Shown here: positions 20,763-24,530 of the stretch, piece after piece
How positions within the stretch are numbered: position 1 is the stretch's first letter
How the letters are laid out: each line of letters starts with the position of its first letter
Sequence record: OQ031076
Strand: one strand, 5' to 3'
From: Shigella phage SFP20
DNA: 39,499 nucleotides
Made by a program: the position numbers and the translations under genes
The notes under the pieces: generated by a model
What the model was told of the DNA's origin: nothing
The model's database searches: none
Seen by the model: only the letters and a program-made list of their open reading frames with translations

Positions 20763-20785
20763 AATATACCCTCACTAGAGGACTC
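20763..20785 (+). promoter_or_regulatory. variant phage-promoter-like element (CCCTCACTAGAGG) upstream of gene 1
   Basis: AATATACCCTCACTAGAGGACTC: one mismatch (TAGA for TATA) to the family consensus; followed by the GACTCAAGG motif. Confidence 0.4.
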
Positions 20786-20854
20786 AAGGTCTAAGACTTC
20801 AGTTAAAGACCAAAGAGACTTTAAGTGAAAGACTAACAAACAAGGACTTTAAGT

Positions 20855-23521
20855 ATGAGCGTCATTCAGCTTGAGAAGCACGACTTCTCGGACATCTCCA
20901 ACGCTATCGAGCCGTTTAACATTCTGGCTGACCACTACGGGCAGGACCTCGCAGTCAAACAGCTTCAGCTTGAGCATGAGGCATACACTGAAGGCGAGCG
21001 TCGTTTCATCAAGAATCTTGAGCGTCAGGCTGAGCGCGGGGAGCTGGCTGATAATCAGGTCGCAAGACCACTGATGCAAACTCTGGTCCCTAAACTGGCG
21101 CAAGCCGTCAAGGAGTGGCACGAGACCCAAGGGTCAACCCGTGGTAAACCTCAGGTCGCCTTCCTGAAGCTGAGCACTGAGTCGAAACCTCGTGCGCTAC
21201 TGGTCCAGCCTGAGTCGGTGGCGGTCATCGTCCTGAAGATTGCGCTCTCCAAGCTGGTCAAGCCTGAAGGCGTACCGATTACACCGATGGCCTCCGCGAT
21301 TGGTCGCACACTTGAGGATGAAATCCGCTTCGGTCGCATCCGTGACCAAGAGCAGGAGCACTTCAAGAAGACCATAGCCGAGAACCTGAAGAAACGCGCT
21401 GGCGTGGCCTACAAGAAAGCCTACATGCAAGCGGTCGAAGCCTCCATGCTGGACCAGAAGCAACTGGCTGATGCGTGGGGAACATGGTCGCCTGATGAGG
21501 CTGTACATGTTGGCATCAAGATGCTGGAGCTTCTCATCCAGTCCACACAACTGGTCGAACTGAAGCGCCACAACGCCGGGAACGCAGCGTCAGACGTCGA
21601 GATGGTCCACTTGTCGGACTTCTGGGCCAAGAAGATGGCACAGCGTGGCTACTCACTGGCAGGCATCGCCCCGGTTTACCAGCCTTGTGTCGTGCCTCCA
21701 CGTCCTTGGAACTCGGTGGTCGGTGGCGGGTACTGGGCTAAAGGTCGCAGACCTCTCCCGCTGATGCGCTTAGGGTCGAAGGCCGCTATCGCTCGCTACG
21801 AGGAAGTTTACATGCCTGAAGTCTACGAGGCAGTGAACATCATTCAGCAGACTCCTTGGAAGGTGAACAAGAAGGTTCTGGACGTAGTGAACATGGTCGA
21901 GAAGCTGAACAATACGCCTATCGCTGACATCCCACAGATGGACCCGATGAAACCTGAGGACTACAACGGGGAGACCGAGGAGGAGCTGAAGGCGTGGAAG
22001 AAAGCAGCCGCTGGAATCTATCGCCGCGAGAAGGCCCGACAGTCCCGCCGTTTGTCCCTGAGCTTCATCGTCGGACAGGCGAACAAGTTCTCTCAGTTCA
22101 AGGCCATCTGGTTCCCGTACAACATGGACTGGCGCGGTCGAGTCTACGCGGTCCCGATGTTCAACCCACAGGGCAACGACATGCAAAAGGGTCTACTGAC
22201 TCTGGCAGTCGGCAAGCCAATCGGTGCGGACGGATTCAAGTGGCTTAAGGTCCACGGTGCGAACTGTGCGGGTGTCGATAAAGTCACCTTTGAGGAGCGC
22301 ATCAAGTGGGTGGAAGACAACCATGACAACATTCTCGCAGCCGCGAAGTCTCCGATGGACAGCATCGACTGGTGGGGTCAGTTAGACTCTCCGTTCTGCT
22401 TCCTCGCCTTCTGCTTCGAGTATGCTGGAGTCATGCACCACGGGCTGAGCTACTCCTGCTCTCTGCCTATCGCGTTCGATGGGTCATGCTCTGGGATTCA
22501 GCACTTCAGCGCAATGCTTCGGGACCACGTTGGTGGACATGCGGTCAACCTGACGCCAAGCGGGAAGGTCCAAGACATCTACCGCATCGTGTCTGACGAA
22601 GTGGAGGAGCGACTCAAGGAGCTGCTGGTCAACGGTAGCGACAACGAAGTCAAGACCTTCGAGGACAAGAAGACTGGCGAGATTACTGAACGTCTCATCC
22701 TCGGGACCCGTGAGCTGGCCCGGCAGTGGCTGACCTACGGAATGTCACGCTCGGTCACTAAACGCTCTGTCATGACTCTGGCCTACGGGTCGAAGGAATA
22801 CGGGTTCGCGGACCAAGTGTTCGAGGACACCGTGATGCCAGCGATTGATGCAGGCAAGGGGGCGATGTTCACAGACCCGAGCCAAGCGTCTCGCTTCATG
22901 GCTAAGATGATTTGGGATGCAGTGAGCGTGACTGTGGTAGCTGCGGTGGACGCGATGAAGTGGCTGCAAGGCGCGGCTAAGCTGCTGGCTGCTGAGGTCA
23001 AGGACAAGAAGACCAAAGAGGTCCTGAAGCCGTGCCTCCCGGTTCACTGGGTCACGCCTGATGGCTTCCCGGTCTGGCAGGAGTACCGCAAGAAGGACAC
23101 CACACGTCTGGACCTGATGTTCCTAGGGACTTTCCGTCTGCAACCCACAGTCAACAAAGGGGCGAGCAAGGAGCTGGACAAGCACAAGCAGGAGTCAGGC
23201 ATCAGCCCGAACTTCGTCCACTCACAGGATGGCAGTCACCTGAGGAAGACTGTAGTCCACACTCACCGCAAGTATGGAGTCATGAGCTTTGCGGTCATTC
23301 ATGATAGCTTCGGGACCATCCCGGCAGACGCTGAGTTCCTGTTCAAGGGCGTCCGCGAGACTATGGTCGAGACCTACCGCGACAACGATGTGCTGCAAGA
23401 CTTCTACGAGCAGTTCGCGGACCAGCTTCATGAGACCCAGCGCGATAAGCTGCCTGAGTTACCGAAGCGTGGTAAACTGAACATTGAAGACATTCTGTCA
23501 TCTGACTTTGCATTCGCCTAA
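20855..23521 (+). CDS. 1: single-subunit DNA-dependent RNA polymerase (gene 1)
   Basis: 888 aa; extensive identity to T7/T3 RNAP (LADHYG, GERRF, RFGRIRD, LVELKRHNAGNA, QPCVVPP.PW, IWFPYNMDWRGRVYAVPMFNPQGNDM.KGLLTLA, DSPFCFLAFCFEYAG, FDGSCSGIQHFSAMLRD, RSVTKRSVMTLAYGSKE, HKQESGI.PNFVHSQDGSHLR, IHDSFGT, C-terminal SDFAFA). Confidence 0.98.
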   Translation: MSVIQLEKHDFSDISNAIEPFNILADHYGQDLAVKQLQLEHEAYTEGERRFIKNLERQAERGELADNQVARPLMQTLVPKLAQAVKEWHETQGSTRGKPQVAFLKLSTESKPRALLVQPESVAVIVLKIALSKLVKPEGVPITPMASAIGRTLEDEIRFGRIRDQEQEHFKKTIAENLKKRAGVAYKKAYMQAVEASMLDQKQLADAWGTWSPDEAVHVGIKMLELLIQSTQLVELKRHNAGNAASDVEMVHLSDFWAKKMAQRGYSLAGIAPVYQPCVVPPRPWNSVVGGGYWAKGRRPLPLMRLGSKAAIARYEEVYMPEVYEAVNIIQQTPWKVNKKVLDVVNMVEKLNNTPIADIPQMDPMKPEDYNGETEEELKAWKKAAAGIYRREKARQSRRLSLSFIVGQANKFSQFKAIWFPYNMDWRGRVYAVPMFNPQGNDMQKGLLTLAVGKPIGADGFKWLKVHGANCAGVDKVTFEERIKWVEDNHDNILAAAKSPMDSIDWWGQLDSPFCFLAFCFEYAGVMHHGLSYSCSLPIAFDGSCSGIQHFSAMLRDHVGGHAVNLTPSGKVQDIYRIVSDEVEERLKELLVNGSDNEVKTFEDKKTGEITERLILGTRELARQWLTYGMSRSVTKRSVMTLAYGSKEYGFADQVFEDTVMPAIDAGKGAMFTDPSQASRFMAKMIWDAVSVTVVAAVDAMKWLQGAAKLLAAEVKDKKTKEVLKPCLPVHWVTPDGFPVWQEYRKKDTTRLDLMFLGTFRLQPTVNKGASKELDKHKQESGISPNFVHSQDGSHLRKTVVHTHRKYGVMSFAVIHDSFGTIPADAEFLFKGVRETMVETYRDNDVLQDFYEQFADQLHETQRDKLPELPKRGKLNIEDILSSDFAFA

Positions 23522-23532
23522 GGAGGCACCTA

Positions 23533-23733
23533 ATGAAATTCGCACACAAAATCACCAACGTATCGGGTGGTAACAAGCTGGTAACTGTGACTGAGCACAA
23601 CGGTAAGGCGCTGGTCAAGGTGACAATGATTCCAGCCGGGACCGCCAAGCGTGTGGGCCTCACCCAGAAGGAGCTGGTCCAGAACGTCCAGTGGTCCCAC
23701 GAGAAGGCCCTTGAAGCTGGGGCAGCGAAATGA
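23533..23733 (+). CDS. hypothetical protein (between gene 1 and 1.1)
   Basis: 66 aa ORF with strong RBS TAAGGAGG; no recognisable motif. Confidence 0.5.
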   Translation: MKFAHKITNVSGGNKLVTVTEHNGKALVKVTMIPAGTAKRVGLTQKELVQNVQWSHEKALEAGAAK

Positions 23734-23807
23734 CAGACCTGAAGTGGCTGGCCTTATGGCTGGCCTTCCTTGCAGTATTCACCCTAATCCAACGACGCAG
23801 AGGCTAA
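23730..23807 (+). CDS. putative 25-aa hydrophobic peptide (MTDLKWLALWLAFLAVFTLIQRRRG)
   Basis: ATG overlaps the upstream stop (ATGA); single predicted transmembrane-like segment; very short. Confidence 0.25.
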   Translation: MTDLKWLALWLAFLAVFTLIQRRRG

Positions 23808-23812
23808 TAACC

Positions 23813-24268
23813 ATGTTCAACCGTAAACTGAAAGCACGTATCGCAGAACTTGAGTCCAACCTGACGAAAAGCGATGAGATGAACGACATAATGCGGCGTG
23901 ACAATCGCAGGCTTAAGGACAAGCTGGCGGTAGCCGACAAGAAGCGTGACCCTGAGCCGCTGCAAGTCAAGCGTATGGTCGGCCTTAAGTTCAAGGCGCT
24001 GTTCAATGGCCTCTATCAGCCTACCGAGTTCAAGACCGGGCCGGGACCATGTGGCAAGACGGTAACGCATTTCACCACGAGTCGTACCGAGCGTGAGCTG
24101 ACAATCCACCAGCACCACACGGATGGCTCCAGCAAGTCCTTCGAGTATCGACTGAGTGACATCGACGGTCGCATCCAGTACGACTATGAGAACGTGACAG
24201 TCTACGGAGAGGAGGCAGAACGTGAGCGCCTGATGTGGCGAGCAGCCCGTGTCGCCCGTTTCGCTTAA
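23813..24268 (+). CDS. hypothetical protein, 151 aa (N-terminal charged helix, C-terminal His-rich region)
   Basis: ATG at 23813 with RBS-like GCAGAGG upstream, within the track ORF 23651..24268; coding-like codon usage; unassigned. Confidence 0.5.
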   Translation: MFNRKLKARIAELESNLTKSDEMNDIMRRDNRRLKDKLAVADKKRDPEPLQVKRMVGLKFKALFNGLYQPTEFKTGPGPCGKTVTHFTTSRTERELTIHQHHTDGSSKSFEYRLSDIDGRIQYDYENVTVYGEEAERERLMWRAARVARFA

Positions 24269-24286
24269 ACCCTCACTATAGGATTA
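24264..24286 (+). promoter_or_regulatory. phage RNAP promoter (phi1.1 position), CTTAAACCCTCACTATAGGATTA
   Basis: Promoter family match. Confidence 0.8.
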
Positions 24287-24287
24287 A

Positions 24288-24327
24288 ACTCAAGGTCATC
24301 AGACTTCTGGTGGCCTTCATGATTAAC
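24288..24327 (+). promoter_or_regulatory. putative RNase III stem-loop (R1.1 position)
   Basis: ACTCAAGGTCATCAGACTTCTGGTGGCCTTCATGATTAAC; shares both flanks with the 14704 and 31548 sites. Confidence 0.55.
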
Positions 24328-24350
24328 CCTAAACTACTGGAGATTCAACC

Positions 24351-24530
24351 ATGTATCAGAATACCGTAAACTTTGAGCGCATCCGTGAACGTCAGCAGAC
24401 TGAAGGCTTCATGCCTAAGGGTCGCAAGCTGAACAAGACCAAGCGTGGCGGTGGCGTCAAGGGTGCTTTCCGCAATGCTGAAGGTAAAGACTCTCTGGTC
24501 AACCAAGAGAAATACTTCGTAGGAGCGTAA
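24351..24530 (+). CDS. 1.1: gene 1.1 protein
   Basis: 59 aa basic protein containing KGRKLNKTKR, as in T7 gp1.1; below track cut-off, found by manual translation. Confidence 0.7.
   Translation: MYQNTVNFERIRERQQTEGFMPKGRKLNKTKRGGGVKGAFRNAEGKDSLVNQEKYFVGA

What the first reader, a model, noticed from the sequence alone, without database searches (positions are those of the whole stretch)
23533..24268. Accessory three-ORF cluster between gene 1 and gene 1.1
T7 has essentially only promoters and the primary replication origin between gene 1 and 1.1. Here there is a 66-aa ORF with a strong RBS, a 25-aa hydrophobic peptide and a 151-aa protein with a charged N-terminal helix (RRDNRRLKDKLAVADKKR) and a His-containing C-terminal domain, immediately upstream of the phi1.1 promoter and R1.1 site. 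This is the most likely place in the window for an undescribed early function, but I cannot assign one.
Basis: inference. Interest (0 to 1): 0.65.

Follow-up and report, generated by a model that had tools for sequence, protein, structure and literature searches.

The report
Conserved early genes after phage RNA polymerase
The three small genes after the RNA polymerase gene of this T7-like Shigella phage are real and conserved but already catalogued as proteins of unknown function; a 25-residue membrane peptide and membrane-anchored relatives of the third protein hint that they act at the host's inner membrane.

Summary
The window is Shigella phage SFP20, genus Kayfunavirus. All three ORFs are real.

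- **orfA** (23533-23733, 66 aa) and **orfB** (23730-23807, 25 aa, hydrophobic) overlap in ATGA. They occur together in about 220 Kayfunavirus records. orfB evolves as a protein: pN/pS is 0.22 in frame and above 1 out of frame.
- **orfC** (23813-24268, 151 aa) belongs to the T3 gene 1.05 family (Pfam PF25755, 92 bits). It has a fast-evolving coiled coil, a strongly conserved six-strand beta domain and a C-terminal helix (AF2 pLDDT 95.6).
- **orfC is dispensable.** It is deleted in K1F and nonsense-interrupted in SH3 and Peacock, while orfA and orfB persist. The "cluster" is therefore two independent modules.
- **The one new clue.** About 30 of 98 family representatives, from at least four other genera, carry an N-terminal transmembrane helix before the coiled coil. 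This suggests the 1.05 domain works tethered to the cytoplasmic face of the inner membrane.
- **Rejected readings.** A programmed orfB-orfC frameshift fusion, a P-loop NTPase and a non-coding element are all excluded. An obligate split-anchor relation between orfB and orfC is weakened but not excluded.

Verdict: ordinary conserved hypothetical early genes, of modest interest.

The parts
20767..20782 (+). Phage-promoter-like site upstream of gene 1 (context)
   Evidence: TACCCTCACTAGAGGA, 2 mismatches to the window's promoter consensus. GW1 has a perfect consensus at the same place, and both are followed by an AT-rich stretch with GACTTTAAGT repeats.
20855..23521 (+). Gene 1, T7-type RNA polymerase (context)
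   Evidence: 888-aa ORF. It aligns with the annotated RNA polymerase genes of GW1, GA2A and K1F.
23520..23526 (+). Shine-Dalgarno AAGGAGG for orfA, overlapping the gene 1 stop codon
   Evidence: Read directly from the sequence. It lies 6 nt before the ATG at 23533.
23533..23733 (+). orfA: 66-aa basic protein (pI 10.1) with a beta-beta-beta-alpha fold; core gene of the genus Kayfunavirus
23730..23807 (+). orfB: 25-aa single-helix hydrophobic micro-protein ending in QRRRG, coupled to orfA by an ATGA overlap and ending in tandem TAA TAA
   Evidence: Same length and position in all loci where it was extracted. DNA found in 219 records. pN/pS 0.22 in frame, above 1 off frame; variable sites 6/5/17 by codon position. 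Annotated as GA2A_08A.
23813..24268 (+). orfC: 151-aa member of the T3 gp1.05 family
   Evidence: PF25755 at 92.4 bits against a cutoff of 27; phrog_8103 at E = 2e-52. AF2 pLDDT 95.6.
23816..23944 (+). orfC residues 2-44: long N-terminal helix, coiled-coil-like, fast-evolving with indels
   Evidence: AF2 secondary structure. pN/pS 0.72 for residues 15-52, with discrete alleles among relatives.
23975..24187 (+). orfC residues 55-125: the PF25755 match, lying within the six-strand beta domain that AF2 places at residues 50-130; carries the motif F..G.GPCGK.V...Q.H.DG..K.F.Y..DI.GR
   Evidence: Pfam envelope. G76, C80, Q100, F110, G119 and R120 are invariant in 79 diverse sequences. pN/pS 0.20. 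No significant PDB fold match.
24206..24262 (+). orfC residues 132-150: C-terminal helix
   Evidence: AF2.
24268..24283 (+). Phage promoter phi1.1 (core match)
   Evidence: AACCCTCACTATAGGA with no mismatches. It is one of 12 matches in the window, against 0.32 expected by chance.
24281..24329 (+). R1.1-like hairpin (candidate RNase III site)
   Evidence: -17.6 kcal/mol, z = -1.9. T3 has an annotated R1.1 site at the equivalent position.
24351..24530 (+). Gene 1.1 homologue (context)
   Evidence: PF08200 at E = 7e-10.

Best explanation
The region holds two independent, conserved gene modules. They are co-transcribed with gene 1 because no promoter or terminator separates them from it.

**Module 1, orfA and orfB.** This is a genus-wide, translationally coupled pair. 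orfA is a small basic soluble protein with a beta-beta-beta-alpha fold. orfB is a 25-residue single-pass membrane peptide. I infer N-out, C-in topology from its QRRRG tail.

**Module 2, orfC.** This is the Kayfunavirus version of T3 gp1.05. It consists of a variable coiled-coil stalk, a strongly constrained roughly 80-residue beta domain and a C-terminal helix. It is dispensable for plaque formation.

**Proposed mechanism (inferred, not shown).** The 1.05 domain is a cytoplasmic binding module that acts at or near the inner face of the cytoplasmic membrane. The stalk oligomerises it or spaces it from the membrane. It binds or sequesters a host factor as part of host takeover or counter-defence, as the other non-essential class I genes of T7-like phages do. 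orfA and orfB would form a second, separate membrane-associated early function.

**What is shown:** coding status, conservation, modularity, predicted folds, dispensability of orfC, and the presence of membrane anchors in relatives.

**What is inferred:** topology, membrane localisation of the anchorless orfC, any orfA-orfB contact, and the host-directed role.
For: **Coding status and conservation:**

**Modularity:**
- K1F keeps orfA and orfB but lacks orfC.
- SH3 and Peacock carry in-frame stop codons in orfC.
- Elunavirus L1 and three metagenomic lineages have a coiled-coil gp1.05 directly after gene 1, with no orfA or orfB.

**Family membership:** PF25755 at 92 bits.

**Membrane link:**
- 28 of 98 representatives at 50% identity have an N-terminal transmembrane helix followed by a coiled coil and the domain. 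About five more are borderline.
- The same architecture sits directly after gene 1 in Teetrevirus SH2, Berlinvirus Carena, Pektosvirus PcaP1EGY and Przondovirus Cornelius.
- Basic residues follow the helix, and the domain-only forms have no signal peptide. This places the domain in the cytoplasm.

**Early-gene setting in other lineages:** Pifdecavirus and Ahphunavirus.

**Accessory-gene behaviour:**
- At most 113 full-length matches against 220 records that carry orfA.
- The stalk is mosaic, with pN/pS 0.72, while the domain has 0.20.

**Restriction to phages:** the exact motif FKLGLGPCGK occurs once in 185,579 species genomes, on a contig that looks like a podophage.
Against: - No experiment, no homology to a characterised protein and no significant fold match supports any specific activity.
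- orfC itself has no transmembrane helix. More than half of the family consists of the domain alone, so membrane tethering is not required for function.
- In the Sphingomonas-type podophages the domain-only gene lies inside the DNA replication module, between the DNA polymerase and the 5'-3' exonuclease. In T3 it overlaps the annotated primary origin. Both fit a replication-related role as well as a host-directed one.
- orfA and orfC are both basic (pI 10.1 and 9.6), which would suit nucleic-acid binding.
Confidence: 0.45

Rival explanations
1. orfB is the detached membrane anchor of orfC. An ancestral gp1.05 with a transmembrane helix, coiled coil and domain was split, and the two products reassemble at the membrane.
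For: orfB ends 5 nt before the orfC ATG. Its layout, a short N-terminus, about 17 hydrophobic residues and then RRR, mirrors the N-terminal anchors of the transmembrane-bearing family members. That full architecture is present in at least four sister genera, so it may be ancestral.
Against: orfB is kept under purifying selection where orfC is deleted (K1F) or interrupted (SH3, Peacock). Anchorless coiled-coil gp1.05 exists without any upstream hydrophobic ORF in Elunavirus L1 and in loci L025, L026 and L028. orfB always travels with orfA (220 against 219 records, ATGA overlap). There is no sequence similarity between orfB and the anchors.
Confidence: 0.15
2. gp1.05 (orfC) is an accessory DNA-replication or origin-associated factor, for example one that tethers replicating phage DNA or the replisome, rather than a host-directed effector.
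For: T3 gene 1.05 overlaps the annotated primary origin. In other Studiervirinae the gene follows the promoter and AT-rich repeat element. In the Sphingomonas-type podophages it lies between the DNA polymerase and the 5'-3' exonuclease. The protein is basic. The best, though non-significant, Foldseek probabilities include the small DNA-binding barrel Sso7d (prob 0.80, E = 0.35).
Against: The gene is lost or truncated in viable phages. Here it has no adjacent origin-like element. The Foldseek matches are not significant. In Pifdecavirus and Ahphunavirus it sits among the early genes, not the replication genes.
Confidence: 0.2
3. orfB is a membrane-active peptide acting alone, with orfA as its regulator or antidote. 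Its role could be superinfection exclusion, inhibition of a host membrane protein, or a toxin-like effect similar to a type I toxin.
For: Its size, single hydrophobic helix and cationic C-terminus resemble known small membrane proteins. It is strictly conserved and coupled to orfA.
Against: There is no homology to any described small protein. The only hit is a sub-threshold match to DUF5325 (E = 0.042). Nothing bears on activity.
Confidence: 0.15
4. The ORFs, or at least orfB, are spurious, and the sequence is conserved as a non-coding element such as an origin, an RNA structure or a processing site.
For: T7 and T3 have an origin and promoters in this slot. orfB is unannotated in most records.
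Against: The codon-position pattern and frame-specific pN/pS point to coding sequence. There is no Rfam hit and no inverted repeat. There is no promoter between 20782 and 24268. GC content is 46-62% with no AT-rich tract.
Confidence: 0.03

Closest known systems
Enterobacteria phage T3 gene 1.05 protein (Pfam PF25755, PHROG 8103/6379)
   Same: orfC residues 55-125 match at 92 bits. It shares the invariant G-x-G-P-C-G ... Q ... F ... G-R motif. It occupies the same genomic neighbourhood, after gene 1 and before phi1.1, R1.1 and gene 1.1. Function is unknown in both.
   Different: T3 gp1.05 is 90 aa, essentially the domain alone. It has its own promoter phi1.05 and overlaps the primary origin. 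orfC adds a 45-residue coiled-coil helix and a C-terminal helix, has no promoter of its own, and is separated from gene 1 by orfA and orfB.
Membrane-anchored gp1.05 homologues of Teetrevirus SH2, Berlinvirus, Przondovirus and Pektosvirus (164-190 aa)
   Same: They share the coiled coil followed by the PF25755 domain, and the position directly after gene 1.
   Different: They carry an N-terminal transmembrane helix that orfC lacks. They have an upstream phage promoter and an AT-rich repeat element in place of orfA and orfB.
Kayfunavirus orfA/orfB pair as annotated in Escherichia phage GA2A (GA2A_08, GA2A_08A) and K1F (CKV1F_gp06); PHROG 8082
   Same: They are orthologues, 55-92% identical for orfA and near-identical for orfB, with the same ATGA overlap.
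   Different: None of substance. The window is simply another member of the genus. orfB is unannotated in most records, including those checked here for GW1 and K1F.
Non-essential class I (early) host-takeover genes of T7, such as 0.3 Ocr, 0.4, 0.7 and 1.2 (from my own knowledge of T7 biology)
   Same: They are small, non-essential genes in the same early transcription unit, and they vary among relatives.
   Different: There is no sequence or fold similarity, and no target is known for orfA, orfB or orfC. This is an analogy by genomic context only.

Membership tests
Pfam PF25755 Phage_T3_1_05 (orfC) | Sequence score above the curated gathering threshold | tested here: met
   92.4 bits against a cutoff of 27, E = 1.7e-26, covering profile positions 2-73 of 73.
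Pfam PF25755 Phage_T3_1_05 (orfC) | Conserved core motif F..G.GPCGK.V ... Q.H.DG..K.F.Y ... GR | tested here: met
   G76, C80, Q100, F110, G119 and R120 are invariant, and F73, G78, G81, V84, D104, K108 and Y112 are at least 90% conserved, in 79 diverse sequences. All are present in orfC.
Pfam PF25755 Phage_T3_1_05 (orfC) | Position between gene 1 and the phi1.1 promoter and gene 1.1 in Studiervirinae | tested here: met
   Window order is gene 1, orfA, orfB, orfC, phi1.1, 1.1, 1.2, ligase. The same slot is used in T3, SH2, Carena, Cornelius, L1 and PcaP1EGY.
T3-type gene 1.05 locus | Own phage promoter (phi1.05) and AT-rich origin element immediately upstream | tested here: not met
   There is no promoter match between 20782 and 24268 and no AT-rich tract. 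orfA and orfB fill the space.
PHROG 8082 (orfA) | Full-length profile match | tested here: met
   E = 1.2e-34 over positions 1-66 of 66. The family has no known function.
Single-pass small membrane protein (orfB) | Conserved translated ORF with one hydrophobic helix of about 17 or more residues and a charged flank | tested here: met
   The hydrophobic core LALWLAFLAVFTLI is followed by QRRRG. GRAVY is 0.5-0.76 in all orthologues. The selection pattern is that of coding sequence. Membrane insertion and topology cannot be tested with these tools.
P-loop NTPase (considered for orfC because GPGPCGKT fits GxxxxGK[ST]) | Invariant Walker A Lys-Ser/Thr within an alpha/beta Rossmann-like fold | tested here: not met
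   Family members have CGL, CRR, CGQ, CGKV and CGKE at this site. The predicted domain is an all-beta unit of about 80 residues.
Programmed frameshift fusion of orfB and orfC | A conserved frame relation and a slippery site | tested here: not met
   The offset between the two start codons is 83 nt in the window and GW1 (orfC in the -1 frame) but 82 nt in GA2A and SFP21A (orfC in the +1 frame). The upstream extension of the orfC frame is terminated in those phages.
Known anti-phage defence proteins (PADLOC) and NCBIfam families | Any profile match | tested here: not met
   PADLOC gives no hits. NCBIfam gives only sub-threshold noise with E above 0.08.
Microtubule-binding protein (a GenBank label on some homologues) | A significant match to a MAP family | tested here: not met
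   MAP70 scores E = 0.034, 13.4 bits against a cutoff of 27, and the match lies on the coiled-coil segment only.

The most novel reading that the evidence does not exclude
The gp1.05 domain is a previously unrecognised phage effector that acts tethered to the inner membrane. It is found only in virulent Autographivirales-type podophages. Kayfunaviruses additionally carry a genus-wide two-gene early module, a 66-aa basic protein and a 25-aa transmembrane micro-protein. Together these would define a membrane-directed host-takeover or counter-defence step that is absent from the T7 paradigm.
Probability: 0.3. Interest if true: 0.55.

Novelty: new member of a known kind. Interest (0 to 1): 0.3.

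Why it matters
T7-like phages are the best-understood lytic phages, yet the slot just after the RNA polymerase gene holds proteins nobody has characterised. This work clarifies that slot:
- It contains two separable modules.
- A 25-residue membrane peptide, missing from the GW1 and K1F records checked here, is under clear purifying selection across a whole genus.
- About a third of gp1.05 family diversity is membrane-anchored.

Together these give concrete targets for localisation, pull-down and deletion experiments. Kayfunaviruses, including K1F, are used as therapeutic and biocontrol candidates, so knowing what their conserved early genes do has practical value. As it stands the result is mainly an annotation improvement, not a discovery.

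Tried and rejected
- **Function by sequence.** Pfam, PHROGs, NCBIfam and PADLOC returned only PF25755 and PHROGs of unknown function. Profile searches of PDB sequences found nothing for orfA and only coiled-coil noise for orfC.
- **Literature.** "gp1.05" and "gene 1.05" appear only in genome annotation tables. PF25755 is not mentioned in any paper. The single paper that mentions SFP20 says nothing about these genes.
- **P-loop reading of GPGPCGKT.** Rejected.
- **Frameshift fusion of orfB and orfC, and the 170-aa GenBank start for orfC.** Both rejected.
- **orfB as the obligate split anchor of orfC.** Weakened by K1F and by anchorless homologues that have no upstream orfB.
- **Amphipathic N-terminal membrane-targeting helix in T3 gp1.05 and orfC.** Hydrophobic moments of 0.46 and 0.29 are not convincing.
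- **tblastn with the orfB peptide.** No result, probably because of the low-complexity filter. A DNA search was used instead.
- **Profile scan of bacterial genomes.** An exact-motif scan found one phage-like contig.
- **Rfam and repeat scans.** Nothing found.

Full report
**Identity of the window.** The 151-aa product is 100% identical to a protein of Shigella phage SFP20, found on a contig of exactly 39,499 bp. The nearest sequenced relatives over 23400-24400 are Kayfunavirus phages: GW1 at 84% nucleotide identity, then GA2A and others. The record is circularly permuted relative to the T7 convention, so gene 1 (RNA polymerase) lies at 20855-23521.

**Checking the observation.**
- orfA runs 23533-23733 (66 aa). 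AAGGAGG lies 6 nt upstream of its ATG and overlaps the gene 1 stop codon.
- orfB runs 23730-23807 (25 aa, MTDLKWLALWLAFLAVFTLIQRRRG). Its ATG overlaps the orfA stop in ATGA, and it ends in tandem TAA TAA.
- orfC runs 23813-24268 (151 aa), with GAGG 9 nt upstream of its ATG.

A perfect match to the phage promoter consensus follows at 24268-24283. It is one of 12 matches in the window, against 0.32 expected by chance. After it comes a hairpin resembling the R1.1 site, and then homologues of genes 1.1 and 1.2 and the ligase. There is no promoter match between 20782 and 24268. I found no terminator-like site on the + strand between gene 1 and orfC. The three ORFs are therefore co-transcribed with gene 1.

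**Are they real genes?** Yes.
- orfA has 220 tblastn hits in the phage collection, all at full length.
- The 87-nt stretch containing orfB is found in 219 records with the same taxon distribution as orfA.
- In the 11 loci where orfB was extracted, and in a more diverged metagenomic lineage (L027, MSDLLWLVLWLAFLAAYTICQRRRG), orfB is always 25 codons long, always overlaps orfA in ATGA, and always ends in QRRRG.
- orfB's variable sites fall 6/5/17 by codon position. Its pN/pS is 0.22 in frame, against 1.6 and 1.1 in the other frames. This is the signature of a translated peptide, not of a conserved DNA or RNA element.
- Rfam and repeat scans of the region are empty.
- orfA has pN/pS 0.36, and the orfC beta domain 0.20.
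- The 170-aa start used in the SFP20 GenBank record (ATG at 23756, overlapping orfB) is not conserved. In GA2A and SFP21A that frame terminates before orfC.

**What orfC is.** It belongs to Pfam PF25755, "Enterobacteria phage T3 gene 1.05 protein" (92.4 bits against a cutoff of 27, residues 55-125), and to phrog_8103.

AlphaFold2 on a 79-sequence alignment gives a confident model (pLDDT 95.6). It has a helix at residues 2-44, six beta strands at 50-130 and a helix at 132-150.

An exhaustive search of 1.84 billion representative proteins finds only 99 clusters at 50% identity, one of which is a spurious repeat protein. Across 79 of these sequences G76, C80, Q100, F110, G119 and R120 are invariant.

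The motif GPGPCGKT fits the Walker A pattern literally. However, the Lys and Thr vary across the family and the domain is all-beta, so a P-loop NTPase is rejected.

Within Kayfunavirus the domain is tightly constrained. The coiled-coil segment is mosaic and carries indels, with pN/pS 0.72.

**Three architectures in the family.**
- About 54 of the 98 true representatives are the domain alone. T3 gp1.05, at 90 aa, is of this type.
- About 13-16 have a coiled coil followed by the domain. This window is of that type.
- 28 clear cases, plus about 5 borderline ones, have an N-terminal transmembrane helix, a coiled coil and the domain.

The anchored form sits directly after gene 1 in Teetrevirus SH2, Berlinvirus Carena, Pektosvirus PcaP1EGY, Przondovirus Cornelius and a metagenomic T7-like contig. 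The domain-only forms have no signal peptide, and basic residues follow the anchor helix. The domain should therefore be cytoplasmic and, in a third of the family's diversity, tethered to the inner membrane through a coiled-coil spacer. This is the only mechanistic clue I could extract, and it is an inference.

**Modularity.** orfA and orfB always travel together. orfC does not travel with them.
- K1F has orfA and orfB followed directly by the promoter, with orfC deleted.
- SH3 and Peacock have in-frame stop codons in orfC.
- At most 113 phage records hold a full-length orfC match, against 220 with orfA.
- Conversely, Elunavirus L1 and three metagenomic lineages have a coiled-coil gp1.05 with no orfA or orfB. 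There the upstream space holds a phage promoter and an AT-rich ACTTAAAG-repeat element. T3 annotates that element as the primary origin.

These facts weaken the otherwise attractive idea that orfB is the split-off anchor of orfC. A programmed frameshift fusion is excluded. orfC lies in the -1 frame relative to orfB in the window and GW1, but in the +1 frame in GA2A and SFP21A.

**Searches for function.**
- Foldseek against the PDB gave no E-value below 0.14. The best probabilities were for small beta barrels or sandwiches such as Sso7d, ribosomal proteins and PH-like domains.
- The AFDB library was unavailable.
- The searchable literature mentions gp1.05 only in annotation tables.
- The "microtubule-binding protein" label on some homologues rests on a sub-threshold coiled-coil hit.

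**Context elsewhere.** In Pifdecavirus and Ahphunavirus the domain gene lies among the early genes. In Sphingomonas-type podophages it lies between the DNA polymerase and the 5'-3' exonuclease. The exact motif FKLGLGPCGK occurs once in 185,579 representative bacterial and archaeal genomes, on a contig that looks like such a podophage. The family therefore appears confined to virulent podophages.

**Interpretation.** The best-supported account is structural and evolutionary. There are two independent conserved modules. One is a genus-core coupled pair, a soluble basic protein and a single-pass membrane micro-protein. The other is a dispensable, mosaic gp1.05-family protein.

For mechanism I commit, at low confidence, to a cytoplasmic binding domain that acts at or near the inner membrane in host takeover or counter-defence. 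This rests on the anchored relatives, the accessory-gene behaviour and the company these genes keep in the early region.

A replication-associated role is the main rival. It is supported by proximity to the origin in T3, by the replication-module context in other podophages, and by the basic charge of the proteins.

**Verdict.** The novelty is low, because the genes have catalogued homologues of unknown function. The useful outputs are a corrected start for orfC, evidence that the often-unannotated 25-aa gene is real, and the membrane-anchor clue for the gp1.05 family.

Noticed in passing
window 20767-20854: There is a phage-promoter match (TACCCTCACTAGAGGA) 88 nt upstream of the gene 1 ATG. 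GW1 has a perfect consensus at the same place. An AT-rich stretch with GACTTTAAGT repeats follows. In T3, Berlinvirus, Przondovirus and Elunavirus the analogous promoter and ACTTAAAG-repeat element lies after gene 1, and T3 annotates it as the primary origin. Kayfunaviruses may therefore have the origin-like element, and phage-polymerase transcription of gene 1, upstream of gene 1.
   Followed up: partly
window 23756-24268: The SFP20 GenBank product for orfC is 170 aa, from an upstream ATG that overlaps orfB. That extension is out of frame or terminated in GA2A and SFP21A. The conserved start is the ATG at 23813.
   Followed up: yes
L003 1858-2373 (Enterobacter phage EV136_1); also IME278 and SAKp10309: orfC homologues are annotated as "microtubule-binding protein". 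The only support is a sub-threshold MAP70 hit on the coiled coil (E = 0.034), so this is probably a mis-annotation.
   Followed up: yes
L012 1852-2330 (SH3); L010 2101-2562 (Peacock); L006 2975-3060 (K1F): orfC carries an in-frame stop codon in SH3 (within the domain) and in Peacock (within the coiled coil, leaving a 99-aa domain-only ORF that starts at the conserved Met55). It is absent altogether from K1F.
   Followed up: yes
window 23799-23807: The conserved orfB C-terminal codons for RRRG (AGA/CGC AGA GGC) also supply the GAGG Shine-Dalgarno sequence for orfC. They are conserved even in K1F, which has no orfC.
   Followed up: partly
L019 8001-8258 (Sphingobium sp. CCH11-B1 contig LSJY01000082): This 19-kb contig in a bacterial assembly carries a DnaB-like helicase, a family A DNA polymerase, a 5'-3' exonuclease and a gp1.05-domain gene. 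It looks like a podophage genome rather than chromosomal DNA.
   Followed up: no
L017 1-326: The 110-kb metagenomic contig that carries a domain-only gp1.05 homologue also has a weak Pfam hit to Gad2 (PF26128), an anti-Gabija protein family, about 8 kb upstream.
   Followed up: no
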